Source: an uncultured virus (IMG/VR IMGVR_UViG_3300030104_003662) (taxonomy: Duplodnaviria > Heunggongvirae > Uroviricota > Caudoviricetes). From it: a stretch of 64,000 nucleotides of DNA. How positions within the stretch are numbered: position 1 is the stretch's first letter; every line of letters begins with the position of its first letter. Below the pieces are notes generated by a model that saw nothing but the letters and a program-made list of their open reading frames with translations, did not search any database and was not told the DNA's origin. The DNA is taken from the IMG/VR virus record IMGVR_UViG_3300030104_003662, positions 1 to 64,000 of that record; one strand, 5' to 3'. Position numbers and translations under genes: made by a program. This document shows positions 255 through 35,423 of this stretch, one piece after another.

Positions 255-542
255 ATGAGGTCATTTGAACAGGCTTGGCAACTCCTTAAAGAAGAGGCTG
301 AGAACTTTGATGTAGACAACCCGATGCAAGTCGGCAACTATGCGACTCAAGATTTGCCGCACATTACTTGGATGAGTCCTGAAAAAAGAACTGGCTGGGT
401 GGATGGTAACTTGATGTTGTTCGGCCTCCCTCAATGGGCAGCGAGAAACAAACATACAGCGAGTATATCAACGGATAAACAAGAAACTCCTCAAGAGCAT
501 TTTACGAGACAGATGTTTGATGCACAGGGTAAACTAAAATAG
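255..542 (+). CDS. Small protein with N-terminal tag (MRSFEQAWQLLK-E); putative head cargo protein
   Basis: ORF track 243..542. Start moved to ATG 255 on promoter spacing, which puts the tag at the N-terminus. Confidence 0.7.
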   Translation: MRSFEQAWQLLKEEAENFDVDNPMQVGNYATQDLPHITWMSPEKRTGWVDGNLMLFGLPQWAARNKHTASISTDKQETPQEHFTRQMFDAQGKLK

Positions 543-547
543 ACCGC

Positions 548-581
548 TGGCTTTTTACCCTGAGTCGCATTGGCTTTACGC
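548..581 (+). promoter_or_regulatory. Archaeal-type promoter, duplicate of 221-254
   Basis: TGGCTTTTTACC...TTTACGCATG. TTTTTA (552-557) ends 25 nt before ATG 582. Confidence 0.65.
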
Positions 582-1271
582 ATGGGAGCATTTGATAACG
601 CTTGGTCAGTATTGAAATTAGACCGTTCTCACTTTAACCGCCTTGAGATAGACGACGATGAAGAACTGTCACACGAACCTACCGAGGAATACCCCGGACA
701 GCATCGTGACGAGCCAGTGAAGAACCCAATGCATGAAGCAACAATGGATGAGAGGTTTGAAGAAGAAGAGGCAGAGGGTGTACCTGAAAAGTCTCGTTTG
801 CTTTCTGCTCGCCCGCCTCAAAGACTTGACTTAAGCACTCCTAAGAATCCTTTCCAAAAATCTTGGAACATACTCAAGGCTCGCACTGAGCGGGCTTACT
901 CACCGATGCATGGAGAGCGCGCTCCTACAGCAGAGCAGCGTGCCATCGACCGTAGTGTGAGAATGAAGCCTGACAATTTACAAACTATGACACAACTTGC
1001 GGGCATGCCGCAAGATATTAGTTCAGCGACTGGTGATATATCAAGGCAAACTGAGCGGGCTAATGTCATGCGTGATGAAAGTAGAAACCGTATGGCCGGG
1101 CAAGAAGAACTTGAAATGGGAATGACAGAAGAAGAAGAAGCGGATTATGTCAAATACTTATTAGACAGGAGCAAGGGTGAAGAAGATGCACGCTTTAGAG
1201 AAAGCGCAGGTAGTGAGGGCAGCCCAGCGGGTCGTAACATTGGTGGTCTTTCATCAAGAGTAGCACTATAA
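582..1271 (+). CDS. Acidic protein with two tags (AFDNAWSVLK-L; PFQKSWNILK-A); putative head cargo di-protein
   Basis: ORF 570..1271, start moved to ATG 582. Tag at the N-terminus and again at about 850-880. Confidence 0.75.
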   Translation: MGAFDNAWSVLKLDRSHFNRLEIDDDEELSHEPTEEYPGQHRDEPVKNPMHEATMDERFEEEEAEGVPEKSRLLSARPPQRLDLSTPKNPFQKSWNILKARTERAYSPMHGERAPTAEQRAIDRSVRMKPDNLQTMTQLAGMPQDISSATGDISRQTERANVMRDESRNRMAGQEELEMGMTEEEEADYVKYLLDRSKGEEDARFRESAGSEGSPAGRNIGGLSSRVAL

Positions 1272-1283
1272 GGGGAAATTGAA

Positions 1284-1721
1284 ATGCAACCAATCGACGC
1301 AGCATGGAACTTATTGAAAGCAATAAGAATGGATGACGAATATGCCGATGAGCCAATAGACTATGGTGATGCCAATTGGCCCGACGGCCCCGGTCATTTT
1401 ATGTTCACTGGTGGAAAAGGTAGTATGAATCCGTTTAGCGTATCATCAAGACAGAAAATTGGTGACGAGACTCCAGCGCATGCTCAGGTTACAGCGCAGC
1501 GCCCTGCTCATTTGGATAATGCAGAAGAAGCAAGACTGGCTGCATTGTCAGAAGCGCAGGGTACAGTAAGTCCTGAAATGCACATGACACAGTTGCTTGG
1601 TGAATTAACGGCACGATTAGATAACACTATTCCCGGTACTCTTGAAAGAATGCAATTAGAAGAGCGCATCCAAGAGTTGCAAAACCGAGTTAGCCGAATG
1701 GGTCCCGGCTCAAGCCCTTGA
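1284..1721 (+). CDS. Tagged protein (MQPIDAAWNLLK-A), function unknown
   Basis: ORF with purine-rich RBS (AAGGGG); N-terminal tag; C-terminal helical segment. Confidence 0.75.
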   Translation: MQPIDAAWNLLKAIRMDDEYADEPIDYGDANWPDGPGHFMFTGGKGSMNPFSVSSRQKIGDETPAHAQVTAQRPAHLDNAEEARLAALSEAQGTVSPEMHMTQLLGELTARLDNTIPGTLERMQLEERIQELQNRVSRMGPGSSP

Positions 1722-1727
1722 TAAGAA

Positions 1728-2426
1728 GTGAATAACATGAAACCAATTGACGCAGCATGGAACTTATTAAAAGCGATACCCTTAGACCCTGACACCCCAT
1801 GGGTGGATGGTAAAGGCATATCAGGTTTTAGAGGCGAAGTATCGGATGCCCACTTTAGAGAAAGTTTACCTAATTTTCCTTTAGGTGCTCATATGCAAAC
1901 TAACGAAATGCCTAATTACACAGATACAGACAGCCGTGGTCGAATTGCAGCGGTTTTAGGTGGAGAAAGGAACATGAGAACAGTGCCTATTAGTCCATAC
2001 GATAGCGACATTACAAGGCAAAGTGCCTATCAATTCGCCCCTCTTGAAAATCCTGACTTCCCACGAGGACATGGAGGCTACAATTACCCAACTGCTAATT
2101 ACCAAGGAGGATTTCCGAAAACTCACAGGCCGACACCCGGTAGCAATCAAGAACTGATTGATGCAATATCAAGGCTTAGTCCTGATGAACAGTATTTGGT
2201 AAATGCAATGAAGGAAAGCCATAGAACCACTCATCCTACTCAGAAAACTCTTGATGAAATGAACATGTCTCGTGACGAATACTTGCAGCATATGCAAGAA
2301 AATGCAACAGCAGCAGCAAGGGCAATGGGCCTAGACAATAATCTACCCGGAGGAAGGTTAGGTGCGGTTGCTAGGTATAGTCAAGACATGACTCCTCCTG
2401 AGTATCAGCAATCCGTATTTGAGTGA
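1728..2426 (+). CDS. Tagged protein (MKPIDAAWNLLK-A), function unknown
   Basis: Tag nearly identical at DNA level to that of 1284; the rest is unrelated. Start is GTG 1728 or ATG 1737. Confidence 0.75.
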   Translation: MNNMKPIDAAWNLLKAIPLDPDTPWVDGKGISGFRGEVSDAHFRESLPNFPLGAHMQTNEMPNYTDTDSRGRIAAVLGGERNMRTVPISPYDSDITRQSAYQFAPLENPDFPRGHGGYNYPTANYQGGFPKTHRPTPGSNQELIDAISRLSPDEQYLVNAMKESHRTTHPTQKTLDEMNMSRDEYLQHMQENATAAARAMGLDNNLPGGRLGAVARYSQDMTPPEYQQSVFE

Positions 2427-3214
2427 ATAACATGAAACCCCTTGAGCAAGCGTGGGATTTGCTCAAAGCAAAACAATATCATCACTCTCGTACTGACCGT
2501 TGGATTCCTGAAACACAAACTACACTAGGTCAGCATGGTTTCAAAGGGGCTGCTGATAACTTAACAGACGCTTTGTTAGATGACAATTATGCTTATAGTA
2601 CTGAAAGACCGGATAGTAGAAGAGGAGATTACTATGTCTCTTTACCAAAACAAGACTTAAGGTCAGACACAAGGCGTTATCAAATCCACTCTGCTGATAA
2701 TGATAAAGTGGCTGGTCAGGCTGATATGATGAGAGGTTTACTATCTACAGACAATATGGTACAAGAGGCTTACAAACCGACTTACGCTTTAGTAAATCCT
2801 ACGCATAGGGGTCAAGATTTGTATAACCGTGCTTTGTTAGGTATACTTTCTGCACAAGGACCCGCTGACATAGGTAGTTTGGTATCAAGTGATAGAACAA
2901 TGGCAAGTGCTACTTCTCATCAAAAGTTACAACAAGACTTAGCAAACTTAGGTGAGGGCTACTTTAGCAGAGAAGGCGGGTTGGGTTACGATGAGCCAAC
3001 CTTTAGCCCGCTACCACGCAGTCAAAATGACGAACATACTTATTTGTCACTAGGTAATTACTCTCCGCCAAGTCTATACGGAGACCTTCGTGCAAGAGAC
3101 CCCGGAGGTTTGCCGATGAGAATCATTGACGAACCTCAGTCTGTTGAGGACTTTTCTGAGTCTGACCCAAGCCAAACTATACAAGCAAAATTACCTCAAT
3201 GGGGTATTTACTAA
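2423..3214 (+). CDS. Tagged protein (MKPLEQAWDLLK-A) with a GNAT-like acetyltransferase motif
   Basis: YALVNPTHRGQDLYNRALLGIL resembles GNAT motif A (VxPxxRGxG), with G replaced by D. Confidence 0.6.
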   Translation: MNNMKPLEQAWDLLKAKQYHHSRTDRWIPETQTTLGQHGFKGAADNLTDALLDDNYAYSTERPDSRRGDYYVSLPKQDLRSDTRRYQIHSADNDKVAGQADMMRGLLSTDNMVQEAYKPTYALVNPTHRGQDLYNRALLGILSAQGPADIGSLVSSDRTMASATSHQKLQQDLANLGEGYFSREGGLGYDEPTFSPLPRSQNDEHTYLSLGNYSPPSLYGDLRARDPGGLPMRIIDEPQSVEDFSESDPSQTIQAKLPQWGIY

Positions 3215-3265: not shown

Positions 3266-4120
3266 ATGGGCCGTTCTCGTGACATTCAAATCTACGAAGT
3301 TGGTCCTCGTGATGGCTTGCAAAATGTTTTATTTGAAACAAGTACTTCTGACAAAGTTGATTTAATAACCAGTCTTCATAAGGCTGGTTTTGAAAATATG
3401 GAAATAACTTCTTTTGTACATCCAAAGTTAGTACCTAATATGTCAGATGCTGAAAAAGTATTTGAGCAAACTAAACACTTAGGTGACTTTGGAGTACTAG
3501 TACCTAATCAAAGAGGCTTTGAAAGGGCCAAATCGGTGGGAGCAAAGAAGTTTAATATATTCTTTTCACCCTCAAGAGAGTTTAATTATCGTAATTTAGG
3601 TAATAGTAACTTGTCTGAGATTCATTGGAAACTACAAAACATGCTTAAAGATGTAGACAGAGAAAATGTAAGAGCGTATATTTCCTGTGCGTTTGGCTGT
3701 CCTTTTGAGGGCAAGCCTTCTGAGCATGATTTGAAAGCAACTGCTGAAATTGCTGACGAATTAGCCAGTGATATTGTTTTATGCGACACTATAGGTAGTT
3801 GTCATCCTTCTCTTATGCGTTGGACTTTAGACAAAGTGAAAAAAGTAGATGCTGATATTGGTCTACATATGCACCACAACTCTAAAAGGACTAATGATAT
3901 ATTTGCAAATATAAAATCTGCATTTGAGTTTGGCATAACAAAGTTAGACTCTAGTATAGGCGGACTTGGAGGTTGCCCATTTATCCCCGGCAGCGGTGGG
4001 AATCTATCAACGAATGCTTTGATAAATTGGGCAAATGACAATGGTTATGAAACAGGAATAGAACTTCGTGATTTGATACCAGCAACAGATTGGGTATCAA
4101 AGTTTGATGCAATAGTCTAA
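3266..4120 (+). CDS. hmgL: Hydroxymethylglutaryl-CoA lyase (DRE-TIM metallolyase), auxiliary metabolic gene
   Basis: IYEVGPRDGLQN, EITSFVHPKLVP, AYISCAFGCPFEG, LCDTIG, HMH metal ligands and GLGGCPF catalytic-Cys loop are all present. Confidence 0.93.
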   Translation: MGRSRDIQIYEVGPRDGLQNVLFETSTSDKVDLITSLHKAGFENMEITSFVHPKLVPNMSDAEKVFEQTKHLGDFGVLVPNQRGFERAKSVGAKKFNIFFSPSREFNYRNLGNSNLSEIHWKLQNMLKDVDRENVRAYISCAFGCPFEGKPSEHDLKATAEIADELASDIVLCDTIGSCHPSLMRWTLDKVKKVDADIGLHMHHNSKRTNDIFANIKSAFEFGITKLDSSIGGLGGCPFIPGSGGNLSTNALINWANDNGYETGIELRDLIPATDWVSKFDAIV

Positions 4121-4997: not shown

Positions 4998-7487
4998 ATG
5001 CCGACATGCCATGTTTGTGGTCAGGAGTTTCCTTATGGACCTCAAGGCATTGTCGCACATAGTAGGCATGTAGACGAACACTATGGTGTTAATAACCAAA
5101 GTGAAAAGGATGCTATGTTTCAAACAGGCGAACCAATGGACCTCGCTATGCGGTTGCTAAAAAATTACGATATTGAAGAAGTCAAAAGAAACCTTATGAA
5201 TGCTGGTGCATTTGAGGATTATATTGACCATCAAATTGATAATGCACAACCCGGTATGGATAGAAACCTACCACGGCCTTACGGTTTAATGAGCCATCAA
5301 GCGTTAAATCATTTAATGAATGGATTTTATGAAGGTGATATTAGAGAAATGCTTGATGACCCTAATTTTGCTTTTGATAGAAATAAAGAGGGAAAATTGA
5401 TTTGGAATGCTCGTAATTTAGGGGCGGGAGAGCCTGAACATGCTCATCCCGAACATTTAGGTTTTATGATTGAAAATCAATTGGAGGGAACTCCTATAGA
5501 TTTTCAAGGAATAGGAAAAGAGGTTATGTTAAGATGGTTAGAAAATACACCGTGGAAACTTAATGAACCACGAACAAGTAAGTTCTTAGGTTTGGAATTG
5601 AAACCTACATCAACGACTGACTTTTCAAGTACTTACGCATACGGCCCAACTGATACTTTAGAACAAGTTGAAGGAATAAAAGGGCGAGGCTTTCAAGACA
5701 TTATGACAGGCGAACCAATGGACCTCGCTTGGCGACTACTCAAGATGCCGGTTGTTGATACTGACATTCCTGAATTAAGGATGGCCTATGACTTCGATGA
5801 TGAAGTAAGCGAAGCGCGTCAATCTCACCCTCAAGGTATCATAGGTAACAGTCCTTTAATTTCTAATAGACAAGATGAAATCTCTGACATGACTCCCAAT
5901 CAATACTTCGACCTCTTAAACCAATTTTTTATACAAGAGCATGGTAAGAGGCTACCTGATAAAGACGCAGATTATCGCTGGGCCAATATGAGAATGGGGG
6001 CTGAAACACCTAAAGAGCACATAGGTAATATGGTACAAGGTATAGGTGAAGGTCAGGTTATGGGGATGCCTTCTTTGTATTTAGAAAACGACGGGAGAGG
6101 TAACTTTTTCCCAACAGGGCAGCAAGAAGGCGGCCATCGTATGGAGGCTCTAAGGCAAATGGGGCATGGTGATACTCCGGTCCCTGTCCTTCAACAAAAA
6201 CGAGGTTATAACCGTGAGCCTGATAATTCTATAGAAACATTAACCGAAGACCCTAATAGTATTTTTTACGGTGCTGACCACAAACATATGTCGGATTTAT
6301 TACAAACAGGCGAACCAATAGACCTCGCTATGCGGCTGCTTAAGATGCCTATTGTTTCCGATTTACCCGAAGTAAGGCAACTTGATACTGGCCCAGCAAA
6401 CATTCATCAATTTCAAGACCCAGTAACAGGTGAAGTGAAACCGTTGTACATTTCTCCCGCATCAAACCCTGACTCAGAAAATCTTTACGCCGGTATAGTT
6501 GGAGATAACGGCGATAGAGCATCAGCAAAGTTTAACACCGGAGATGGTGATTATGCAAGTTTGGATGGTGTAGAAACACAAGAGCCGTATCGAAGAAGAG
6601 GCTACATGAGTGCAATATATGATGCGATGGATGAATACCTTCAACAAAACAAAACAGGTCGCCGTTTAGTACCAAGCGATTTCCAAAGTGATGAAGGAAA
6701 AGCGTTTTGGGAAAGTAGGAAAAAAAGCGAACCAATGGACATCGCTATGCAGTTGCTTAAGATAAGTGCAGATGAGATAGATGATATAGAAAGGGAAATA
6801 GAAGGCTCTGTAAAAGATTCAAGAAGAACATTCCCTAAAGGTAGGAAAAAAACGAGAAGCATGGGTATGGGGTCAAGTGAAGAGGAATGGGAGCCTAGAG
6901 AACGACCTAATGCTAGACAAGGTAGAAAACCTCTTTCATTTGAACAGCAAGAATCTGAGTGGGATAAATTAGATATGCATCCGGGTAGCCGAGGTCATGA
7001 AATCAACGCACTACGGAGCGAACAGGCTAGAGGGTACCCCCCGGAGTTTGGGACCTTTGCAGATTTAGACGACGGAGATTACCTTTTACAAGAATATAAC
7101 CCTAATATAGAAGAAAACCCATACTGGGGTTCTTTCATTTATCCGGGTTCAGAGACTCGCTATAATGTGCCAAATAATGATTATTGGATAAAGGATGATA
7201 AAATACTGAACTTTCCTCAACGAACCGAATCACTAGAAGAAGTTCCAACATTTTCTCAAACTCCGTTTAACCCTATGACTGATTTTACCCGTAGCGAACC
7301 AATGGACCTTGCTTTCAGATTGCTCAAAGGTGACATACTAGTTGTATCTGAAACAGTAGCAAAAAAATTATGCCCTGCTGGTAAAGCAGCCGCTAAACGC
7401 AAGTTCAAAGTTTATCCGTCAGCCTATGCTAATGGATGGGCTGTGCAGTATTGTAAAGGTAAGTTTAGGGGGAAAAAGAAAAAATGA
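4998..7487 (+). CDS. Modular polyprotein: Zn finger / unknown / ParB-Srx-like / GNAT / unknown / basic module, separated by five EP[MI]D[LI]AxxLLK tags
   Basis: Five in-frame repeats. CHVC..H..H at the N-terminus; MPSLYL..QEGGHRMEALRQMG..PVPV (ParB/Srx-like); VETQEPYRRRGYMSAIYDAM..QSDEGKAFWE (GNAT); C-terminal LCPAGKAAAKRKFKVYPSAYANGWAVQYCKGK. Confidence 0.8.
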   Translation: MPTCHVCGQEFPYGPQGIVAHSRHVDEHYGVNNQSEKDAMFQTGEPMDLAMRLLKNYDIEEVKRNLMNAGAFEDYIDHQIDNAQPGMDRNLPRPYGLMSHQALNHLMNGFYEGDIREMLDDPNFAFDRNKEGKLIWNARNLGAGEPEHAHPEHLGFMIENQLEGTPIDFQGIGKEVMLRWLENTPWKLNEPRTSKFLGLELKPTSTTDFSSTYAYGPTDTLEQVEGIKGRGFQDIMTGEPMDLAWRLLKMPVVDTDIPELRMAYDFDDEVSEARQSHPQGIIGNSPLISNRQDEISDMTPNQYFDLLNQFFIQEHGKRLPDKDADYRWANMRMGAETPKEHIGNMVQGIGEGQVMGMPSLYLENDGRGNFFPTGQQEGGHRMEALRQMGHGDTPVPVLQQKRGYNREPDNSIETLTEDPNSIFYGADHKHMSDLLQTGEPIDLAMRLLKMPIVSDLPEVRQLDTGPANIHQFQDPVTGEVKPLYISPASNPDSENLYAGIVGDNGDRASAKFNTGDGDYASLDGVETQEPYRRRGYMSAIYDAMDEYLQQNKTGRRLVPSDFQSDEGKAFWESRKKSEPMDIAMQLLKISADEIDDIEREIEGSVKDSRRTFPKGRKKTRSMGMGSSEEEWEPRERPNARQGRKPLSFEQQESEWDKLDMHPGSRGHEINALRSEQARGYPPEFGTFADLDDGDYLLQEYNPNIEENPYWGSFIYPGSETRYNVPNNDYWIKDDKILNFPQRTESLEEVPTFSQTPFNPMTDFTRSEPMDLAFRLLKGDILVVSETVAKKLCPAGKAAAKRKFKVYPSAYANGWAVQYCKGKFRGKKKK
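5124..7328 (+). repeat. Five dispersed ~39-bp coding repeats (GCGAACCAATRGACMTYGCT core)
   Basis: Copies at 5124-5162, 5706-5744, 6306-6344, 6726-6761 and 7293-7328. Confidence 0.9.
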
Positions 7488-7792: not shown

Positions 7793-8127
7793 TGGACTAC
7801 GACTTTTGCGACTGTTGTACTCCAGCAGAAATTAGTTTTGAGTTTCTAAAGGCTAAAAAGAAGTCAAAGCCATTTCACGGTTACAATCCAAACAAACATA
7901 GCAAAAAAGGCGGTCTAAATGCCAAAGGTCGTGCTGCGGCTAAGCGTAAAAGTGGAGCAAATCTAAAACCACCGGTTACTACAAAGCCATCTAAACTTAA
8001 GCCCGGCTCAAAAAAGGCTAAGCGTCGTAAATCATTTTGTGCTCGTATGAGTGGCGTAAAGGGTCCAACCAGTAAAAAGGGCAAACTTACTCCTAAAGGT
8101 GCATCACTAAAGAGGTGGAACTGTTGA
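7792..8127 (+). CDS. Small basic protein (GGLNAKGR..RRKSFCARM..WNC type)
   Basis: Acidic leader ending SFEFLK-A, followed by a highly basic domain seen in marine phage hypothetical proteins (recognised from memory). Confidence 0.75.
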   Translation: MDYDFCDCCTPAEISFEFLKAKKKSKPFHGYNPNKHSKKGGLNAKGRAAAKRKSGANLKPPVTTKPSKLKPGSKKAKRRKSFCARMSGVKGPTSKKGKLTPKGASLKRWNC

Positions 8128-8324
8128 ATAACGATGCTATGGCTTATGCTTGGCGCATTATGAAGGGTAAAGAAGACGCACCTAATTACCGATGCCCAGC
8201 CGATGACCCAAAGGAAAGTTGTGGAACTTGTCGTCACTGGGTAGGCAAAGGAAACGGAATGGGTCATTGTAAGTTGTTTGACTTTGATTGCAACGGTAAG
8301 TGTACTTGCGATGCTTGGGGTTGA
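8124..8324 (+). CDS. Tagged small Cys-rich protein with HiPIP-like Cys spacing
   Basis: GAGGTGG RBS and TTG 8124; tag AMAYAWRIMK-G; then NY..CGTCRHW..GHCKLF..CTCDAW. Confidence 0.6.
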   Translation: MNNDAMAYAWRIMKGKEDAPNYRCPADDPKESCGTCRHWVGKGNGMGHCKLFDFDCNGKCTCDAWG

Positions 8325-8328
8325 TAAT

Positions 8329-8778
8329 ATGAATCCGATGGACCTTGCTTGGATTGTTCTTAAAGCAAGTAGTGTCGAAAGTACTATTGTTAGAACTTTG
8401 AAAGACGAAGGCGGCGCTGCTGGCCTTGATGCTTTGATGAAACCGCTTAGTATTTCTGAGGCTGAACTTAAAGCCAAGTTAAAAGATATGGCAAATGTAA
8501 CACAGCATCGTAATGGTGATTATATTTTAACAGACGGTTTGCACAAGCATGCTTCTTCTCCCGAAGCACTGCGTCATAAAGTAGAGTATGATAAAAAATA
8601 TGAATCTAATCCTGAAAGAGTCAAATATCGTGAGTCTTTGAACCAAGAGCGTCGTAAGCGTGGTATTTATGGGCAAGGTGGCCCTGATATGAGCCATACC
8701 AAAGAAGGCACTATGGTCGCAGAAAACCCTCATGCAAACCGTGCTCGTCATTTCAAAGAGCGAGGCACGCTTAAGTAA
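8329..8778 (+). CDS. Tagged protein (MNPMDLAWIVLK-A): wHTH-like domain plus minimal HNH-like domain
   Basis: Start moved to ATG 8329. C-terminal YDKKY..KYRESLNQERRKRG..GPDMSHTKEG..ENPHANRARH resembles compact phage HNH endonucleases. Confidence 0.6.
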   Translation: MNPMDLAWIVLKASSVESTIVRTLKDEGGAAGLDALMKPLSISEAELKAKLKDMANVTQHRNGDYILTDGLHKHASSPEALRHKVEYDKKYESNPERVKYRESLNQERRKRGIYGQGGPDMSHTKEGTMVAENPHANRARHFKERGTLK

Positions 8779-8798
8779 TATCACACGGTAGGGTAAGC

Positions 8799-9011
8799 GT
8801 GGAAGATTGGTGGAGCATACTACTGACTGATATGTTAAAACAGTCAGAAAAAGATATTATGCATCTTGATGCTTTCGTAGACGAAAAAGACTCTTGGAAA
8901 GACATCTCATTATTGATGAATGCAGTAGACCATTATCGCTTTTTGCGACAGGCTTATGAAAACAGAGGCAGTGGGAATGTACATGTCGAAGTCAGATTTG
9001 TCACCGAGTGA
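8799..9011 (+). CDS. Hypothetical protein
   Basis: CTTAAG box ends 24 nt upstream of the GTG; possible tag variant WWSILLTDMLK-Q. Confidence 0.55.
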   Translation: MEDWWSILLTDMLKQSEKDIMHLDAFVDEKDSWKDISLLMNAVDHYRFLRQAYENRGSGNVHVEVRFVTE

Positions 9012-10200
9012 CGCTGCTTGGGCTGTCTTAAAACAGACAAATGACCCTGACAAGATTGAGAAAATCTTACCTCTTATTCCTTTAGCACTAGCAGGGTATG
9101 GTGCTTATCGTGGCTATCAAAATGTTACTGACCCAAGGGGTCCGGTAGTAACTGACCCTCTTACTGGCGGTTATCTTTACGAGCGTGAGGTAGACCCTAC
9201 GCTTGGAGGTTATGCTGCTGCTTTTGGCTCAGGTGCACTAGAAGGCGTTGGATTAGGAGGGGCTGCGAAACTTGGTGCTAAAGGAGTTTCAAGATTAGCA
9301 GGTAGTTCTGCATCAAAAAGAGCCGCAGCACGACAAGCAGCGTCAGACCATGCTCGTAAGGAAACTACCGAAAGGTTGGCTCGCCAAGAAGCAGATACAG
9401 CATTAGCCGCTCTTAACAGAAGCCCAATTACGCCCGGCGGTAATGTAACTTATGCACCGGCTAGACTTCCAAGTAACTTAGATGATATGGCAATGGCAAG
9501 AGCAAGAACGAGTCCTTATGTTACAGGTCAAGCGAGAGGTGCAGCAAGGGCCGCTTATGCACCCGGAGCACGAAGAGAAGCCGTTGCACGAGGTGTGCAA
9601 AGAGGTGCTGGCAAAGTAGACGATGCACTGTCCGCAAGAGCATTAGGTTATGGAGCGCTAGGAGCCGGGGCGCTAGGACTTGGTGGAGCATATTTAGCAA
9701 ATCGAGCACAAGAGGGATTAGAAAACGCATATCCTGACCCAAATACCTCCGGCTTTGGTGCTTATGGTGGTACTGGTAGCGGTGGTTTTGGTCAAAGTAA
9801 TACAGGCGGTGCTGCTAGTGGCTTTGGCGAAGGCACTGGTATTGGTGGCGTGAGTAATCAATCCAGTAAAAGGACTGGTCTTCAAGACATTTGGACTGGT
9901 AAAGAGAACACTATGCAATTTGGCGGAGGATTTGGCATGGGTGAAAAGGCAACAAAAGGTGAGAATATGAAAATAGGAGAAAGAATGTTAAAACAAGCAG
10001 AAGATATAATGTACAAAGCAGTTTGCCCAGCATGTGGTAAAAAGGACTGTAATTGTAAAGAGTACAAGAACAAAAAGGAAGATAGTAAGAAGCCCGCTCA
10101 TGGTATGGTTATTGTTATCGGTACTAAAGCGGGTCCCGGTCCATATAAAAATGGAAAGCGGGAAAAACTAGACTCTGAAAAAGACGAAAAAGAAGAGTGA
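8956..10200 (+). CDS. Tagged Gly/Ala-rich protein with hydrophobic segments; candidate ejection/pilot protein
   Basis: SPSDAAWAVLK-Q tag; ILPLIPLALAGYG and ALGYGALGAGALGLGGAYLA segments; C-terminal CPACGKKDCNC. True start is probably 8977 or 8983. Confidence 0.65.
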   Translation: MKTEAVGMYMSKSDLSPSDAAWAVLKQTNDPDKIEKILPLIPLALAGYGAYRGYQNVTDPRGPVVTDPLTGGYLYEREVDPTLGGYAAAFGSGALEGVGLGGAAKLGAKGVSRLAGSSASKRAAARQAASDHARKETTERLARQEADTALAALNRSPITPGGNVTYAPARLPSNLDDMAMARARTSPYVTGQARGAARAAYAPGARREAVARGVQRGAGKVDDALSARALGYGALGAGALGLGGAYLANRAQEGLENAYPDPNTSGFGAYGGTGSGGFGQSNTGGAASGFGEGTGIGGVSNQSSKRTGLQDIWTGKENTMQFGGGFGMGEKATKGENMKIGERMLKQAEDIMYKAVCPACGKKDCNCKEYKNKKEDSKKPAHGMVIVIGTKAGPGPYKNGKREKLDSEKDEKEE

Positions 10201-10232
10201 GTTTGAAGACCCCTTTCCTTCTCGGCTTACAT

Positions 10233-10269
10233 GGGTCGGAGGGGGCAACCCTCTCGCATTCTCCGACCC
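10233..10269. terminator. Intergenic GC-rich stem-loop (terminator or structured RNA element)
   Basis: GGGTCGGAG (10233-41) pairs with CTCCGACCC (10261-69); inner GGG-GCAA-CCC; lies between two transcription units. Confidence 0.45.
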
Positions 10270-10349
10270 GCCTTACTTTAGTGATACTTAAATCATTAGT
10301 AGAACACTTTATGTCATGTACCATCACCCGATAGGTGAGAGGGACTATT

Positions 10350-10928: not shown

Positions 10929-10934
10929 TTCTTT

Positions 10935-11183: not shown

Positions 11184-11191
11184 GTGATATT

Positions 11192-11914: not shown

Positions 11915-11921
11915 GGAGGAA

Positions 11922-12965: not shown

Positions 12966-12976
12966 AGGTGAATAAA

Positions 12977-13618: not shown

Positions 13619-13622
13619 TACT

Positions 13623-14138: not shown

Positions 14139-14198
14139 TACTCTACGCAATCGGTCTTTGTTCAAAAGGGTTATTCGTGTGCATGCTCTCGGAGCGTT

Positions 14199-14900: not shown

Positions 14901-14909
14901 GTTGATTAA

Positions 14910-24767: not shown

Positions 24768-24771
24768 TAAT

Positions 24772-30657: not shown

Positions 30658-30687
30658 TTATATAGTATGGTCATTCTCTATAGAAGC

Positions 30688-32064
30688 ATGGTCGCCTCAC
30701 TTTCACTGAGAACCTCTCCCGTTCATCACGAGGGGAATATCAGTATCATTAAGGCAGGTAACGACCTTGTAATCGCTGGTTATGCCAGTGTCGAAATGGT
30801 TGACAAGCAAGGAGACCTAATTACTCGTGGAGCACTAAAAGACGCTTTTGGTAACTTTATGAAAGCAGAAGATTTTAGAAATGTACAACTCGCACACTCT
30901 AACATACAAGTTGGTAGTGTAATACCACAATACACTGACTCTGACGGTCGTGTGTGGAAATCCGGTGTCGATGACGCCGGTATGTTCGTAGTCATCCAAC
31001 TAAGAGATGACATCGAAAAGGCTCGTGAAGTAGCCAATGATATTCGCAAAGGTAACCTAACTGGTTTCAGCATCGGAGGTCAAGCGTTTAAGAGAATGCG
31101 TAAGGCCGATGATAAACACGGAGACTATACAGAAATCTCCAAGTTGGAACTGCATGAAGTTACTATTTGTGAAAAAGGTATTAACCCGGAGGCGACATTC
31201 CGTATATTGAAGGAGGACACAGATATGACAAGTGAAACAGAAACATTAGCAGAACTTTCTAGTGTCTTAGACCGAATGAGCAAACATATGGATTCAATGG
31301 AGAAGGGCGACCTTCCTCCTTTTATGGAATCCAAAGATGATGCTAAAGACGAGTCTAAGGATGAGAAAGATGACGCACCTAAAGATGAGGCGAAAGATAT
31401 GAAAGACGAAGAGAAAAAGGCATACGATGATATGGAAAAGAGCGAATACTCTGATGTAATATCAAGTGAATACCTAAACTGGATGGAAAACACCTTGAAA
31501 TCACAAGGCGTTGACACCAGTGCGGCAAGAAGTCACTTTGACGATGTCGCTAAGGCTAACCTTGGTAGTACACCTGAGCAGATTGGAGATGGAGCAGACT
31601 ACTTTGCAGGTCAAGTTAAAGGCCGTGCACAAGAAGGTGGCAACCCATCTACTGGCGCTATAGGAAAAGTAAACAGTGGTAAAGTAGAGAAAGGTTACTT
31701 GCACCCAAGTAATGTTAGTTCAACTGACATCGAGGCTGCATACGAAGTCTACAAGGCCGCTGCTCTTGAAGAACAATTCAAGGGTTCCTTGAACAATGTA
31801 TTTTCAGACCGCCTTGCAAAGGAAATGAATGCAGATGCAGAGGCTCGCGCAGCAGCACAATTTGACGCTCGTGCACCACTAAGTAACATCGAGAAAGCAA
31901 TTGCTGACCTTGGTGCTAGAATTGACGACCTTGCTACAAAACCAGCAGGTATAGAAATCCGTAAAGCAACAGACAACTCCACCGTAGAGATTCCTTCAAC
32001 AGAGGAACTCGGTAACATGAACTGGGATGAGGTACACGCTCTAGCAGGGAGTGTATGGAATTAA
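30688..32064 (+). CDS. Prohead (maturation) protease fused to scaffold
   Basis: IAGYASVEMVDKQGDLI, QLAHSN (His), GFSIGG (Ser), LHEVTICEKGINPEA: HK97-type protease with an acidic coiled-coil C-terminus. TTATATA box ends 24 nt before ATG 30688. Confidence 0.92.
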   Translation: MVASLSLRTSPVHHEGNISIIKAGNDLVIAGYASVEMVDKQGDLITRGALKDAFGNFMKAEDFRNVQLAHSNIQVGSVIPQYTDSDGRVWKSGVDDAGMFVVIQLRDDIEKAREVANDIRKGNLTGFSIGGQAFKRMRKADDKHGDYTEISKLELHEVTICEKGINPEATFRILKEDTDMTSETETLAELSSVLDRMSKHMDSMEKGDLPPFMESKDDAKDESKDEKDDAPKDEAKDMKDEEKKAYDDMEKSEYSDVISSEYLNWMENTLKSQGVDTSAARSHFDDVAKANLGSTPEQIGDGADYFAGQVKGRAQEGGNPSTGAIGKVNSGKVEKGYLHPSNVSSTDIEAAYEVYKAAALEEQFKGSLNNVFSDRLAKEMNADAEARAAAQFDARAPLSNIEKAIADLGARIDDLATKPAGIEIRKATDNSTVEIPSTEELGNMNWDEVHALAGSVWN

Positions 32065-32079: not shown

Positions 32080-33252
32080 ATGGCAAGAAATTATATGAGA
32101 ACAGTAAACGATATGGAGCGCTATTATTATGGCGCGGGACAGAGCATGGGATATTCCTACAGTGGTTCAGAACTACTAAAGGCAGATGCACCAATGCTGA
32201 GCACAACCGCAGGTACATACCAAGCAATTTATGGCCGCAAAGTTTGGAGTCAATTGAACCAAGAGTTCAACGCATTCTCCATTCTGCCTAAGAAGCCTTG
32301 GGACAGAAGTGGTTGGAGAGTAGTTACCGCTAAGCCGTCAACATCTGTTGGTGGCGGAGTTGCAGAAAATGCAACCCTACCGGACACAACCAAGCCTACA
32401 TTCCAGCATGTTGCAGCAAAGCCTAAGACTATTGCACACACATTCGATATGTCCGAAACCGCTATTTTCCTTAATGACAAGGATGACGGTCTAGGTGACA
32501 TTCGCTCAGTCCTTAAAGAGGAAATGGGTAAGCACCACGCAGAGCACATCAACCAAATGCTAACACAAGACAGCGAAACACCAGCAGGTAATGACATCGA
32601 GTCTATTGACAGAGTTACTGGAAACGACGGTGGCTCATCCGGTGGATTAACATCTATGGAAACTGGTGCATCAGCAGGTACAGACCACTGTGGCGCTAGT
32701 GATTTAGACATCTACAGCATTGACCGAAGTGCAAACTCTTGGTCTAACGCAGAAGTTGACTGTGGTAGTGACAGAGCAGCAGGTAACCGCCGTACTCTAA
32801 GTCTTGACCACTTGGATACCATCTTCCAAAAGGTTTGGATTCGTGGTGGTAACCCGAAGGTTATGCTAACAGGATATGACACTCTAATGCGTATTCAGCA
32901 ACTTCTACAATCTCAACAGAGATTCATGGAGGAAAAGCGTGTTGTACCAACTTACAACGGTGTAAAAGGTGTACCGGGTGTTGAGGCTGGATTTATAGTC
33001 GCAACTTACAACGGTGTCCCAATCATTCCATCTAAGGATGTACAAGCAGACGGCATTAGCAGAATCTACATGCTTGACACTGACTACCTATACTACAGTA
33101 CTGCGAAACCAACTCAATACTTTGAGTCCGGTATCGAAACTGGAGACCCATTCGCTGTTAACAGACTAGGGCAAGAAGGACTTTACCGCACAATGGGTGA
33201 AGTTTGGACTACTTTCTTTGGAGGTCAAGGTTCAATTCGTGACCTACAGTGA
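32080..33252 (+). CDS. Major capsid protein (HK97 fold)
   Basis: Directly follows the protease; 390 aa; AFSILPKKPW, GGVAENATLP, ATYNGVPIIPS..IYMLD patterns typical of HK97-like MCPs. Confidence 0.9.
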   Translation: MARNYMRTVNDMERYYYGAGQSMGYSYSGSELLKADAPMLSTTAGTYQAIYGRKVWSQLNQEFNAFSILPKKPWDRSGWRVVTAKPSTSVGGGVAENATLPDTTKPTFQHVAAKPKTIAHTFDMSETAIFLNDKDDGLGDIRSVLKEEMGKHHAEHINQMLTQDSETPAGNDIESIDRVTGNDGGSSGGLTSMETGASAGTDHCGASDLDIYSIDRSANSWSNAEVDCGSDRAAGNRRTLSLDHLDTIFQKVWIRGGNPKVMLTGYDTLMRIQQLLQSQQRFMEEKRVVPTYNGVKGVPGVEAGFIVATYNGVPIIPSKDVQADGISRIYMLDTDYLYYSTAKPTQYFESGIETGDPFAVNRLGQEGLYRTMGEVWTTFFGGQGSIRDLQ

Positions 33253-33737: not shown

Positions 33738-33748
33738 GGTGATTCGAC

Positions 33749-34147
33749 TTGCCTACAGTAACCTTTCTAGGACCAATGATGTATCGTCGTAAGAGCGATG
33801 TATCAGGTCAATGGGTAAGGGGAGAGCCTGTTGAAGTTAGTCAGGAATGGCTAAATAAACACAGAGTCAGAATGTCACCTGAAACCTTCAAGATAGAAGG
33901 AGACGAAGGTGTAACAGTAGACGCTGGTAACGACGGACTCCCTGATAGTGGCTGGACTAAAAAAGACATAGGCGCATGGCTTAAAGGAAAAGGTGAAGTT
34001 GTAAGTGGATATACTACCAAGAGCAAGTTGCTCGACATGGTAAAGACCACTCTCAACCCACCTGCTCCTGAGCCGGAACCAGTAGTCGAAGAAGTCCCAG
34101 TCGAAGAGGCAGTTGAAGAACAAGATATAATAGGAGATGAAGAATAA
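33749..34147 (+). CDS. Protein with small helix-extension-helix (Rho-N/HeH-like) domain
   Basis: WTKKDIGAWLKGKG..TTKSKLLDMV; acidic tail; GAGGTGA RBS. Confidence 0.6.
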   Translation: MPTVTFLGPMMYRRKSDVSGQWVRGEPVEVSQEWLNKHRVRMSPETFKIEGDEGVTVDAGNDGLPDSGWTKKDIGAWLKGKGEVVSGYTTKSKLLDMVKTTLNPPAPEPEPVVEEVPVEEAVEEQDIIGDEE

Positions 34148-34470
34148 TGGCAGTAACAATAGACGCAAGACCAAGTTATTTTGGTGACAGAATGATAGTA
34201 ACAGGCTCATATGAAGCAACGGACACATCAATAGATTTGGGTAGTTTGCTTGCAAGTATTGACGCAGTAATAGTTAATCCGATAGCAGCAGGTAACCTTG
34301 CAAAAGTTCAGCATATAGACATCGCTGGTGGCACATCATATGCAGCAGTAGATTTGACTTTGCCCGGAGATATGGCTACTTTCGCTGGCACTACAATTAC
34401 TATAAGTGTCGGTGCAGTAGGGCACAATACCACTGGTGGAACATTCTTAGCAATAGGTCGCCGCTCTTGA
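34147..34470 (+). CDS. Small virion structural protein
   Basis: Beta-rich, located in the head-neck region. Confidence 0.6.
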   Translation: MAVTIDARPSYFGDRMIVTGSYEATDTSIDLGSLLASIDAVIVNPIAAGNLAKVQHIDIAGGTSYAAVDLTLPGDMATFAGTTITISVGAVGHNTTGGTFLAIGRRS

Positions 34471-34481
34471 GGTGACGACTG

Positions 34482-34688
34482 ATGGGTAGTGCAAACTTAG
34501 CAGCATTAAAGTCTAAAGTGGTAGGACCTCTATCACCGGCTGACTTTTCAGGCGCTACAGCAATCCAAACTGCACTTGATGCAGGTTTTGACGCAGTGAC
34601 AGATGCTGATACAGCAGATACGATAGTTGGTATTGAAATGCTCAATGTCTTGGGAAATGCTTATTTGGTAATCATTTACAAGGCTTGA
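34482..34688 (+). CDS. Small hypothetical structural protein
   Basis: GAGGTGA RBS; 68 aa. Confidence 0.6.
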   Translation: MGSANLAALKSKVVGPLSPADFSGATAIQTALDAGFDAVTDADTADTIVGIEMLNVLGNAYLVIIYKA

Positions 34689-34698
34689 GTGGGATAAT

Positions 34699-34983
34699 AT
34701 GGAGTCTAACGACAACCTTGACTTGAATGACATTGAGCGCTTGCAGAAGCGTGGTATTAGGCTTAACGAGTCTTATGGAGCATCGGTAAGAACTGATGAA
34801 GATAATCCACTTGCAGGTTTGACATTAAAGCAACGCAACCGTAATAAGAACGCTGGTGATGTGTTAAACATTGGTAGTGGGACTAGATGCAAGCACTGTG
34901 GTATGCTTTATTTCTGCTGGGTAGATACCTGTAGAACATGTGGTAAGCAAGTAGATTTTAATTTAGGGAGTAGAGAACAATGA
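34699..34983 (+). CDS. Zn-ribbon protein
   Basis: CKHCG..CRTCG near the C-terminus. Confidence 0.7.
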   Translation: MESNDNLDLNDIERLQKRGIRLNESYGASVRTDEDNPLAGLTLKQRNRNKNAGDVLNIGSGTRCKHCGMLYFCWVDTCRTCGKQVDFNLGSREQ

Positions 34984-35423
34984 CAGTTTATATTTTGAAA
35001 CAACCCAATCCACACCGTCAAAAGATATTAGTCGACGGTAAGCCAACTAGATTAGGAAGGTGGGCTAATAGAAAAGCAGCAAAGGCTGTTGGAGAACTTG
35101 GAGGAGACCGTGCAGGTCCTGACTGGCAAATGGCTCGTGATAATTTAATCCAAGAAGCGATGGCTAATCCACAAGCACACGGTATTGAGTTCTTAGATGG
35201 AGTGCCCGAAGGTGCCCAAGAACCACAAATGAATCAACCTAATGTCACAAGTGAAGAACAAACCGCAATAGAGCAAGGCTATCCACCCGAAGCAGCGGCA
35301 CCTGCTCCAAGCGAGCCTCCTCACGGAGGTCACCCTGACTTTATGTATCGCAAGTCGTTTGATGACGCTTGGTCTATTTTGAAACAACAGGGTTATTCAA
35401 GTGGTAACGCTTGGCTAAGGTGA
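34980..35423 (+). CDS. Hypothetical protein with a C-terminal copy of the tag (KSFDDAWSILK-Q)
   Basis: YILK-Q at the N-terminus; tag at 35355-35384. Confidence 0.65.
   Translation: MTVYILKQPNPHRQKILVDGKPTRLGRWANRKAAKAVGELGGDRAGPDWQMARDNLIQEAMANPQAHGIEFLDGVPEGAQEPQMNQPNVTSEEQTAIEQGYPPEAAAPAPSEPPHGGHPDFMYRKSFDDAWSILKQQGYSSGNAWLR

What the first reader, a model, noticed from the sequence alone, without database searches (positions are those of the whole stretch)
255..35423. Candidate capsid-loading and protease-release tag shared by about a dozen unrelated proteins
Seen: a ~13-aa amphipathic motif, consensus (TG)EP[MIF][DE]xA[WMF]xx[LI][LM]K, occurs about 18 times. It is N-terminal in ORFs 255, 582, 1284, 1728, 2423, 8124, 8329 and 8956; internal in 582 (1x), 4998 (5x) and 14910 (3x); and near the C-terminus in 34980. 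The sequence after each tag is unrelated. The tag ends in hydrophobic-x-Lys, like the MCP N-terminus (ELLK-ADAP) and many scaffold sites. Established: T4 internal proteins use a ~10-residue capsid-targeting sequence removed by the gp21 protease, and the HK97 protease cuts its capsid protein after Lys103. Inference: the tag docks cargo into the prohead, the viral protease cuts after Lys, and an exchangeable set of effectors is injected with the DNA. I do not know of this being described for an archaeal virus.
Basis: partly seen in the sequence, partly recalled or inferred. Interest (0 to 1): 0.92.

Follow-up and report, generated by a model that had tools for sequence, protein, structure and literature searches.

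The report
Shared helical tag, archaeal virus proteins
A widespread group of ocean archaeal viruses puts the same ten-residue helical peptide on dozens of unrelated accessory proteins, most likely as an address label that loads them into the virus head, though no experiment has yet shown where the label leads.

Summary
The motif P-Φ-[DE]-x-A-W-x-Φ-L-K occurs 19 times in 12 window ORFs, plus once at 87.4 kb of the 96.8-kb genome. Shuffles give 0.23 strict matches against 14 observed. The genome is a thermosome-encoding magrovirus, a tailed virus of Marine Group II archaea.

- **Spread:** a DNA pattern for the tag hit at least 131 IMG/VR stretches. 81 of the 82 long ones share genes with this virus. 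In 596 Gb of cellular genomes the same pattern found only chance-level hits.
- **Position:** tags sit at N-termini (101), internally (75) or at C-termini (14).
- **Cargo:** 150 complete tagged ORFs fall into 63 sequence clusters, mostly orphans.
- **Location:** tags lie on the structural-gene strand and never in replication genes.
- **Structure:** AlphaFold2 models the tag as a helix.

Best reading (about 0.5): a position-independent docking peptide that loads variable cargo into the prohead, like the T4 capsid-targeting sequence or encapsulin and microcompartment loading peptides. Cleavage after the Lys is plausible but untested. The capsid protein has a conserved Φ-x-K|ADAP junction, but C-terminal tags argue against obligatory release. 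The main rival is a binding motif for some other hub. I found no description of it in print.

The parts
261..290 (+). tag SFEQAWQLLK, N-terminal in ORF255-542 (95 aa, orphan)
   Evidence: no homologue in 5 related genomes
588..617 (+). tag AFDNAWSVLK, N-terminal in ORF582-1271
849..878 (+). tag PFQKSWNILK, internal in ORF582-1271
1290..1319 (+). tag PIDAAWNLLK, N-terminal in ORF1284-1721
   Evidence: AlphaFold2 helix at residues 3-13, first ten residues mean pLDDT 90
1743..1772 (+). tag PIDAAWNLLK, N-terminal in ORF1737-2426 (paralogue of ORF1284)
2438..2467 (+). tag PLEQAWDLLK, N-terminal in ORF2432-3214
4998..7487 (+). 829-aa chain of six modules separated by five internal tags at 5133-5162, 5715-5744, 6315-6344, 6732-6761 and 7299-7328. 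Module 3 has a ParB/Srx-like fold, module 4 is weakly GNAT-like, module 6 is a very basic 47-aa tail (pI 10.3).
   Evidence: Modules occur as separate N-terminally tagged genes in relatives. ParB/Srx. GNAT E 0.0013, below cutoff. Charge.
7822..7851 (+). degenerate tag PAEISFEFLK in ORF7792-8127, placed before a DUF6321 basic domain
   Evidence: Pfam DUF6321 E 4e-17; orthologues with clearer tags
8136..8165 (+). tag AMAYAWRIMK, N-terminal in the Cys-rich ORF8115/8139-8324
   Evidence: orthologues with MERAWALLK or EAAWAVIK before GKEDAPNYR
8335..8364 (+). tag PMDLAWIVLK, N-terminal in ORF8329-8778 (C-terminal phrog_6437 basic domain)
9004..9033 (+). tag PSDAAWAVLK near the N-terminus of ORF8956-10200
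14910..16499 (+). Core 529-aa protein with three variant tags that carry one extra residue (PMEDAWSSLMK 15309-15341, PIDDAWSSLMK 15534-15566, PIDDAWSSLIK 15747-15779) and a basic C-terminal half. It lies three genes upstream of the large terminase.
   Evidence: homologues in 5 of 5 related genomes; tagged gene (1-3 tags) at the syntenic place in four of them (G001-G004), and also in L002-L004
35355..35384 (+). tag SFDDAWSILK, 13 residues from the C-terminus of ORF34980-35423, inside the head/neck gene cluster
30667..32064 (+). Prohead serine protease (S78) fused to a scaffold. It is a candidate receptor and candidate processing enzyme. The protease domain ends in invariant FRILK (31198-31212). 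The C-terminal docking-like motif MNWDEVHALA lies at 32017-32046.
   Evidence: Pfam S78 E 1.4e-10; PHROGs head maturation protease; alignments; motif
32080..33252 (+). Major capsid protein (SU10/HK97-like), a candidate receptor. It has a conserved junction ELLK|ADAP at 32170-32193.

Best explanation
The tag is a lineage-specific, position-independent docking peptide. It is one short amphipathic alpha-helix, P-Φ-[DE]-x-A-W-x-Φ-L-K, with its hydrophobic side chains at positions i, i+4 and i+7 on one face.

The tag is joined by flexible linkers to the N-terminus, the C-terminus or the inter-module joints of a fast-changing set of accessory proteins. All copies bind one common receptor. The most likely receptor is the inside of the assembling prohead (scaffold, capsid protein or protease), so that the cargo is enclosed with the DNA and delivered into the next Marine Group II host cell.

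The known cargo includes very basic small proteins and enzyme-like domains (ParB/Srx-like, GNAT-like, HD). Chains with several tags would dock multivalently. They may also be cut into modules by the S78 prohead protease at the Φ-L-K end of the tag, but release by cleavage is optional in this model, not required.

Shown here: the motif, its helix prediction, its spread, its restriction to the virus and to the structural strand, its modularity, and the turnover of its cargo. Inferred: the receptor, packaging, cleavage and injection.
For: 1. **Non-chance, protein-level motif.**
2. **Free helix.** AlphaFold2 models the tag as a helix (residues 3-13, pLDDT about 90) followed by low-confidence linker. 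In a full cargo model the tag helix has low confidence, which fits a helix not packed on the domain.
3. **Portable tag-plus-cargo unit.** Modules that are internal in ORF4998 are separate N-terminally tagged genes in relatives. All 10 database homologues of one cargo family carry the tag.
4. **Many unrelated cargos.** 150 complete tagged ORFs fall into 63 single-linkage clusters, 47 of them singletons. 74 of 83 representatives have no Pfam hit.
5. **Genomic place.** Tags lie in the arm upstream of the terminase, inside the head/neck cluster, and at the end of the tail operon. 0 of 82 long loci touch homologues of the replication block. None of the Pfam-identified replication genes of this genome carries a tag.
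6. **Virus-only.** Hits in 596 Gb of cellular genomes are at chance level.
7. **Cargo context elsewhere.** Two cargo families occur untagged in marine bacteriophages as small, very basic proteins in late or head gene blocks. DUF6321 sits between the scaffold and capsid genes in HTVC119P, P-SCSP2 and Jormungand. phrog_6437 is Syn5 gp50.
[quoted passage not shown] P1 DarA-Hdf bind the inner capsid surface (PMC12810830, passages read).
9. **A protease is present and the capsid protein has a conserved junction.** 70 of 120 diverse capsid proteins have K.D.[PAVN] near the N-terminus, and P3 is L/I/V/F in 61 of those 70.
Against: - No direct evidence that any tagged protein is in virions. No virion proteome of these uncultured viruses was available to me.
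- Late expression is inferred from strand and synteny only.
- Most cargo modules of this genome are acidic (pI 4.4-5.5), unlike classical DNA-binding internal proteins.
- One tagged gene sits on the + strand inside the replication block (87,371 here, and 86,576 in a relative).
- The tagged genes flank a conserved Arf-like GTPase and membrane-protein operon (earlier findings), which offers a different hub.
- Known capsid-targeting sequences of T4 are N-terminal only (recalled). Here 89 of 190 classed tags are not N-terminal.
- The halovirus relative HVTV-1 (the 50 kb examined) and two viruses whose capsid proteins are 48-49% identical have no such tag. The system is therefore not a general feature of this capsid lineage.
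Confidence: 0.5

Rival explanations
1. The tag is a short linear motif for a hub that is not the capsid. All tagged accessory proteins would act in the cytoplasm and use the helix to bind one common partner. Candidates are the virus's own thermosome, its Arf-like GTPase and membrane operon, or an abundant host protein.
For: - The tagged genes are strain-specific orphans of the kind usually taken for host-takeover or anti-defence genes.
- All six tag-bearing genomes encode the thermosome and the GTPase operon.
- The GTPase operon lies in the middle of the tagged cluster.
- The i/i+4/i+7 hydrophobic helix resembles classical groove-binding motifs such as p53-MDM2 (recalled, not tested).
Against: - The tag is never found on replication-block genes.
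- Some tagged genes are embedded in the head/neck operon.
- Two cargo families are head-module genes in bacteriophages.
- No partner has been identified.
Confidence: 0.22
2. The tag is only a protease-recognition and processing site. It marks where the S78 protease, or a host protease, cuts multi-module precursors and pro-peptides, and it has no targeting role.
For: - Chains of up to six tags occur (ORF4998; L042).
- Φ-L-K resembles the conserved Φ-x-K|A junction of the capsid protein and several invariant Φ-x-K-A sites in the scaffold.
Against: - 101 of 190 classed tags start at the initiator Met, where cutting would remove only about 12 residues.
- 14 of 190 are at C-termini.
- Ten conserved residues and a helix are far more than the P3-P1 information seen at the capsid junction.
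- The residue after the Lys is variable.
Confidence: 0.08
3. The tag is a self-associating 'sticker'. Tag helices would bundle with each other, so that tagged and multi-tagged proteins co-condense into one body, either an inner body in the head or a cytoplasmic compartment.
For: - Multivalent chains exist: 22 of 153 complete tagged ORFs carry more than one tag.
- No receptor has been identified.
Against: - A three-turn helix with an invariant small Ala, a Trp, and conserved acidic and Lys residues looks like a ligand for a defined groove.
- Nothing was tested here.
Confidence: 0.07
4. The tag is a membrane-binding amphipathic helix. It would bring the proteins to the host membrane, or to structures made by the neighbouring Arf-like GTPase and membrane operon.
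For: - The helix is amphipathic.
- It lies next to the GTPase and membrane operon.
- ORF8956 has a hydrophobic stretch after its tag.
Against: - A conserved acidic residue, net charge near zero, and strict A-W and L-K conservation are unusual for lipid-binding helices.
- The cargos (ParB/Srx-like, HD, DNA-binding-like basic proteins) have no evident membrane role.
Confidence: 0.06

Closest known systems
Capsid-targeting sequence (CTS) of bacteriophage T4 internal proteins (IPI-III, Alt)
   Same: A short conserved peptide is the only thing shared by a diverse, fast-evolving set of accessory proteins of one virus. In T4 it brings them into the scaffolding core of the prohead (PMC3012670, passages read). 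Both viruses have a prohead protease.
   Different: - No sequence similarity that I could see (the T4 consensus is recalled, not compared by tool).
- The T4 CTS is N-terminal only and ends in a Glu site for a gp21-type protease (recalled).
- Here the tag is a helix found at N-termini, C-termini and between modules. It ends in Lys, the protease is of the S78/HK97 type, and targeting is unproven.
Encapsulin cargo-loading peptides
   Same: Short terminal peptides on unrelated cargo that dock on the inner face of an HK97-fold shell (recalled). They are portable and sit on flexible linkers.
   Different: Encapsulin operons have no portal, terminase or tail, and their peptides have a different consensus (recalled). 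Here the shell belongs to a true tailed virus. A 2026 paper links encapsulins and small HK97 viruses via procapsids (PMC13669383; I saw only the search listing).
Bacterial microcompartment encapsulation peptides
   Same: Amphipathic helices of about 10-18 residues at either terminus of unrelated enzymes, separated from the enzyme by a poorly conserved linker (recalled). The architecture of helix, linker and cargo is the same.
   Different: The shell proteins are unrelated (BMC-H/P). No such genes are present here (Pfam).
Packaged ejection or anti-restriction proteins of large phages (P1 DarA/Hdf/DarB; phiKZ/SPN3US inner-body and ejection proteins)
   Same: Many accessory proteins are enclosed in the head, some are processed by the prohead protease, and they are delivered with the DNA (PMC12810830, passages read; PMC7411985 and PMC10052503, search-listing abstract starts only).
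   Different: Those systems have no reported common ten-residue helix shared by all cargo. Incorporation there depends on specific proteins or on pro-peptides defined by cleavage sites.
N-terminal packing signals of contractile injection system (PVC/eCIS) payloads, and secretion-system effector signals
   Same: One machine loads many unrelated payloads through a shared short signal (recalled).
   Different: Those signals are disordered N-terminal regions that load a tube lumen or a secretion channel. Here the signal is a defined helix at any position in a capsid-forming virus.

Membership tests
T4-type capsid-targeting sequence | Short conserved peptide shared by otherwise unrelated proteins of one virus, encoded in variable loci | tested here: met
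   63 clusters among 150 complete tagged ORFs. The five N-terminally tagged ORFs at 255-3214 have homologues in 0 of 5 related genomes.
T4-type capsid-targeting sequence | Strictly N-terminal position | tested here: not met
   101 N-terminal, 75 internal and 14 C-terminal among 190 classed tags; 50 further tags lie in ORFs cut by a locus edge and were not classed.
T4-type capsid-targeting sequence | Removed by the prohead protease at a consensus site shared with head proteins | not testable with these tools
   Only suggestive. The tag ends in Φ-L-K, the capsid protein has a conserved Φ-x-K|ADAP junction, and the scaffold has invariant Φ-x-K-A sites. No cleavage data exist.
T4-type capsid-targeting sequence | Sufficient to bring a foreign protein into the capsid | not testable with these tools
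   Needs tag-GFP co-expression or virion proteomics.
Encapsulin cargo-loading peptide | Cargo encoded with an HK97-fold shell gene that lacks portal, terminase and tail | tested here: not met
   Terminase, portal, protease, capsid protein and tail tube are all present.
Microcompartment-type encapsulation peptide (works-like comparison) | Amphipathic helix joined to the cargo by a non-conserved linker, at either terminus | tested here: met
   AlphaFold2 helix at residues 3-13 followed by low-confidence sequence. Flanks are not conserved. N- and C-terminal copies both occur.
Microcompartment-type encapsulation peptide (membership) | BMC shell genes in the same locus | tested here: not met
   No BMC domain among 43 window ORFs scanned against Pfam.
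Magrovirus group A (thermosome-encoding viruses of Marine Group II archaea) | Capsid protein about 33% identical to haloarchaeal siphovirus capsid proteins; archaeal-type replication module; thermosome; SNF2 helicase | tested here: met
   Capsid protein 33% identical to HCTV-5/HVTV-1. Thermosome, split PolB, primase, RFC-like and SNF2 genes present. Group traits as described in PMC5434244 (passages read).
ParB/Srx fold (one cargo family, module 3 of ORF4998) | ParB/sulfiredoxin fold with a DGxHR-type motif | tested here: inconclusive
   - Model pLDDT 82, pTM 0.77.
- Best structural match is Osa (4ovb): Z 6.5, rmsd 3.6, 109 residues aligned. All of the top 30 rows are ParB/Srx-type entries, but every Z is below 8.
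- Foldseek E values are 0.1 or worse.
- G-H-R is invariant in 16 of 16 sequences.
- Atlas ParB_N lead scores 0.89-0.91.
- Pfam finds nothing.

The most novel reading that the evidence does not exclude
Magroviruses have a universal, position-independent capsid-loading helix. Any protein that carries it, once or as a chain of up to six tagged modules, is loaded into the T=13-size head. It is then trimmed by a Lys-directed HK97-type prohead protease at the same Φ-x-K rule that matures the capsid protein, and injected with the genome into Marine Group II archaea. This would be the first protein-delivery code known for an archaeal virus, and it would carry a swappable arsenal of at least 60 cargo families.
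Probability: 0.3. Interest if true: 0.88.

Novelty: new variant of a known kind. Interest (0 to 1): 0.72.

Why it matters
- **Ecological reach.** Magroviruses are among the most abundant archaeal viruses of the surface ocean, and neither they nor their hosts are cultured. This capsid protein family alone has 1,511 relatives at E<=1e-10 in the protein collection and at least 559 IMG/VR stretches.
- **A direct handle on unknown genes.** A ten-residue label shared by dozens of orphan proteins marks, in every new metagenome, the genes that belong to one functional class. It also reduces the question 'what do these orphans do' to finding one receptor.
- **If the receptor is the prohead.** This would be the first capsid-targeting code outside bacteriophages. 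It would work at either terminus and in tandem, which T4's does not. It would define the injected effector set of an archaeal virus and give a ready-made tag for loading foreign proteins into HK97-type shells.
- **If the receptor is something else.** The tag still points to a central hub of the infection.

Tried and rejected
- **Complex prediction.** Capsid protein, protease-scaffold and a 40-residue tagged N-terminus, each given as an alignment, returned 'no answer' (scores 0.02 and 0.00 against a mark of 0.32). It says nothing either way. The single job is spent, so portal, GTPase, thermosome and self-association could not be tried.
- **RNA runs.** None was listed for window 8001-18000, so expression and timing could not be examined.
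- **First regex.** My first regex had the wrong spacing and found only the ORF14910 variant. I corrected it.
- **Earlier findings.** Look-ups by place and by sequence were empty.
- **ORF4998 in other resources.** PDB sequence search found nothing, NCBIfam found nothing for 16 of 17 proteins, and the capsid profile found nothing in the PDB.
- **Halovirus virion paper.** J Virol 2013, PMC3592136, might give the mature N-terminus of a related capsid protein. It is not held.
- **An analogous tag in more distant relatives.**
  - HVTV-1 52-102 kb has no match.
  - Two 84-kb viruses with 48-49% capsid identity (estimated 68-78% complete) have 0 AWxLLK and no enriched motif in a crude 4-of-7 scan that does recover the tag in this genome. 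An earlier reduced-alphabet scan failed its positive control and was dropped.
  - Those viruses share only portal, protease, capsid protein and part of the giant protein with this genome. Presence/absence therefore cannot point to a receptor.
- **Nucleotide-level element.** Rejected because of synonymous variation.
- **FRILK at the end of the protease domain as a tag-like site.** It lies inside the Pfam S78 profile match (residues 34-187 on profile positions 14-161 of 165), so its likeness may simply be part of the fold.
- **Terminal repeats.** None found in this genome. G001 and G005 carry the tagged cluster across their contig ends, so 'first-injected end' arguments are not usable.

Full report
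**What the window is.** The window is the first 64 kb of a single 96,799-bp viral contig.

Genes from 0.2 to 65.8 kb all run on the + strand. Pfam and PHROGs identify:
- a T4-type large terminase (19414)
- a portal (22243)
- a 1,817-aa giant protein
- an S78 prohead protease fused to a scaffold (30667)
- an SU10/HK97-type major capsid protein (32080)
- a tail tube protein (37582)
- a 5,727-aa fibre

The remaining 31 kb runs mostly on the - strand. It encodes a thermosome, ERCC4 and PD-(D/E)XK nucleases, a primase subunit, a split family-B polymerase, an RFC-like ATPase and an SNF2 helicase.

The capsid protein is 33% identical to those of the haloarchaeal siphoviruses HCTV-5, HVTV-1 and HCTV-1. 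This combination is what Philosof et al. describe for thermosome-encoding group A magroviruses (PMC5434244, passages read).

- The strict regex [DEQN].[AS][WMF].[LIVM][LIM]K hits 14 times in the window. All hits are on the + strand and inside ORFs. Thirty shuffles give a mean of 0.23 and a maximum of 2.
- ORF14910 carries three copies with one extra residue (AWSSLMK).
- ORF8115/8139 has AMAYAWRIMK.
- ORF7792 has a degenerate PAEISFEFLK. Its orthologues carry clearer copies before the same DUF6321 cargo.
- One further copy lies at 87,371, outside the window.

The total is 20 copies in 13 proteins of this genome. I checked all coordinates by translation.

Across 57 tags of six genomes, the conserved Leu positions use all six Leu codons and the Ala position uses four codons. 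Selection is therefore on the peptide, not on an RNA or DNA element.

**How far it spreads.** 81 of the 82 loci of 2.5 kb or more share at least one other gene with this genome.

The same pattern in 596 Gb of bacterial and archaeal genomes found 64 stretches:
- about 25 are one Acidobacteriaceae protein (PIDEAWLFLK)
- most of the rest lie in short or wrong frames
- one is a viral contig binned into a bacterial MAG
- none is in an archaeal genome

Five further near-complete relatives (98-100% complete, capsid protein 73-82% identical) gave 22 AWxLLK matches. All matches in each genome are on one strand, and a reversed-pattern control gave 0.

A six-frame scan of the six genomes gave 76 regex hits against 5.5 in shuffles, 71 of them on the capsid-gene strand.
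- By context I judge about 64 of those 71 to be real, plus 2 on the other strand inside the same cluster.
- Four hits are a conserved portal segment that lacks the rest of the tag.

The tag seems limited to this clade.
- The 50 kb of HVTV-1 that holds its structural genes has none.
- Two 84-kb viruses with 48-49% capsid identity have none, and show no other enriched motif in a crude scan.

**Anatomy.** The consensus is P-Φ-[DE]-x-A-W-x-Φ-L-K.
- N-terminal copies start M-x-P.
- Internal and C-terminal copies are preceded by [GS]-E-P, which reads like a helix N-cap (inference).
- Residues after the Lys are variable and rich in Asp, Glu and Pro.

AlphaFold2 on 53 aligned tagged N-termini gives a helix at residues 3-13, with mean pLDDT 90 over the first ten residues and low confidence after that. 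The hydrophobic residues fall at i, i+4 and i+7.

Among 153 complete tagged ORFs from 73 sources, 101 tags are N-terminal, 75 are internal and 14 lie within 15 residues of the C-terminus. Fifty more sit in ORFs cut by a locus edge. 22 ORFs carry more than one tag, up to six in a 1,191-aa protein.

**The tag is a portable module.** ORF4998 (829 aa) is six modules separated by five tags. In relatives the same modules are separate genes, each with an N-terminal tag.
- The first tagged module starts at Met in L001.
- The basic C-terminal module is a 66-68-aa gene in L001 and L004.
- Module 3 is a 146-aa gene family in which all 10 database homologues and all 5 locus copies carry the tag.

**The cargo is diverse and turns over fast.**
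- 150 complete tagged ORFs of at least 60 aa fall into 63 single-linkage clusters, 47 of them singletons. One cluster is the portal false positive.
- Of 83 representatives, 74 have no Pfam match at E<=0.001. Six reach a curated cutoff: DUF5872 four times, DUF6321 once, HD_4 once.
- Module 3 folds with pLDDT 82 and pTM 0.77. Its best structural matches are all of the ParB/Srx type. The top match is Osa (4ovb) at Z 6.5, rmsd 3.6 and 109 aligned residues, with Srx, Noc, ParB, KorB and SbnI below it. All Z values are under 8, so this is a lead. An invariant G-H-R motif and an Atlas lead strengthen it.
- Module 4 is weakly GNAT-like (E 0.0013, below cutoff).
- Charge is mixed. DUF5872, DUF6321, module 6 and the C-terminal half of ORF14910 have pI 10.3-10.6. 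Most other cargos have pI 4.4-5.5.
- The five N-terminally tagged ORFs at 255-3214 have homologues in 0 of 5 related genomes. The core genes between them and the terminase are found in 5 of 5.

**Where tagged genes sit.** Classing the 82 long loci by the homologues they contain (categories overlap) gives the following:
- 48 touch the arm upstream of the terminase
- 22 touch the packaging/head/neck block
- 39 touch the tail/fibre block
- 20 touch the thermosome-side genes next to the end of the tail operon
- 0 touch the replication block (70.6-96.8 kb)

In this genome ORF34980 lies between neck genes. In G005 two tagged 83-85-aa genes lie 2-3 kb after the capsid gene. The exception is one + strand tagged gene inside the replication block, present here and in G002.

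**Cargo families elsewhere.**
- DUF6321 occurs without the tag as a 78-aa, very basic protein placed between the scaffold and capsid genes of the T7-like marine phages HTVC119P, P-SCSP2 and Jormungand.
- DUF6321 also forms the C-terminus of a 427-aa protein next to the terminase of P-TIM68.
- The phrog_6437 domain of ORF8329 is Syn5 gp50, a 92-aa very basic protein in the late region.

This places at least two cargo families among head or late genes in unrelated viruses.

**Cleavage.** The capsid protein reads ...SELLK|ADAPML. In nine close relatives [DE][IL]LK-ADAP is invariant.

Among 120 diverse representatives (30-100% identity), 70 have K.D.[PAVN] within the first 130 residues. P3 is L/I/V/F in 61 of those 70, and the segment before the Lys varies in length and sequence. 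HVTV-1 has GMSK-ADNLL.

That is what a maturation junction would look like. It matches the Φ-L-K end of the tag, and the scaffold has invariant V-Y-K-A, I-E-K-A and I-R-K-A sites.

I could not find cleavage data. The halovirus paper that might hold them is not available. That HK97 cuts after Lys103 and that gp21 removes the T4 CTS are recalled, not checked here.

Against obligatory release: C-terminal tags exist, and P1' is not conserved.

**Mechanism.** A strictly conserved helix on flexible linkers, at any position, on dozens of unrelated proteins of one virus, is the signature of a loading or docking signal for one receptor.

The capsid interior is the best candidate for three reasons: where the genes sit, the head-module context of the cargo families, and the T4 precedent. 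[quoted passage not shown]

The virus also uses a second shared peptide, M-x-W-x-[DE]-[VI]-H-x-L-A. It lies at the C-terminus of the protease-scaffold in 6 of 6 genomes, and of the small ORF24393 family in 3 of 6. This looks like the usual scaffold-to-capsid docking motif (inference).

The main alternative is a non-capsid hub. Two earlier agents of this scan described the conserved Arf-like GTPase and membrane-protein operon (ORFs 10335-13868 here) that lies in the middle of the tagged cluster. I cannot exclude that operon, or the thermosome, as the partner.

**Novelty.**
- The word 'motif' does not occur in PMC5434244.
- It occurs twice in PMC11706807, in one passage on a helix-turn-helix motif.
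- A search for 'capsid targeting' plus 'archaeal' returned three papers, none on an archaeal virus tag.
- The 'magrovirus' search listed 22 papers. I read passages of only two of them.

Within that reach the tag is undescribed.

Noticed in passing
window 24687-24716 and 32017-32046: A second shared peptide, M-x-W-x-[DE]-[VI]-H-x-L-A, ends the protease-scaffold in 6 of 6 genomes and the small ORF24393 family in 3 of 6. It is probably the scaffold-to-capsid docking motif, shared by two head-assembly proteins.
   Followed up: partly
window 10335-13868: ORF11192 has P-loop (GPPMTGKT), DIGG and NKAD motifs of a small GTPase (read by eye; Pfam and NCBIfam find nothing). It sits with small hydrophobic ORFs in a block conserved in 5 of 5 relatives. 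Earlier agents called it an Arf-like GTPase membrane operon.
   Followed up: partly
window 32170-32193: The junction Φ-x-K|A-D-A-P of the capsid protein is conserved down to about 30% identity, while the 15-120 residues before it vary freely. It looks like a family-wide maturation site or the start of the N-arm.
   Followed up: partly
window 25204-30657: An 1,817-aa protein lies between the portal-side genes and the protease. It has a weak ATP-dependent ligase / nucleotidyltransferase match at residues 1390-1494. HVTV-1 has a 1,313-aa protein in the same place. It could be a packaged enzyme.
   Followed up: no
window 20934-22241: A 435-aa ORF between terminase and portal has a GFLDADG (LAGLIDADG-like, by eye) segment. 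It is conserved in 5 of 5 relatives at 46-67% identity, which is unusual for a mobile homing endonuclease.
   Followed up: no
window 3266-4120: An HMGL-like (pyruvate carboxyltransferase / HMG-CoA lyase family) gene, E 7e-24, lies within the tagged cluster. It carries no tag and is conserved in 5 of 5 relatives, though at different places.
   Followed up: no
window 12968-13618: A 216-aa protein has an N-terminal half made almost only of Q, M, G, N and A (prion-like low complexity). It is conserved in 5 of 5 relatives.
   Followed up: no
L236 9711-11800 (genome 73711-75800, - strand): The family-B DNA polymerase is split into two adjacent ORFs of 349 and 347 aa.
   Followed up: no
L201 5920-6156; L202 3408-3665; L204 3420-3659: In three T7-like marine phages a small, very basic DUF6321 protein is encoded between the scaffold and capsid genes. 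It is a candidate internal DNA-binding head protein that has not been annotated.
   Followed up: partly
G001 5806-7251 (- strand) and G005 107613-107957 (- strand), my orientation: Two genes with good tags lie on the strand opposite to the capsid gene, inside the left-arm cluster. They are local inversions within an otherwise one-strand system.
   Followed up: no
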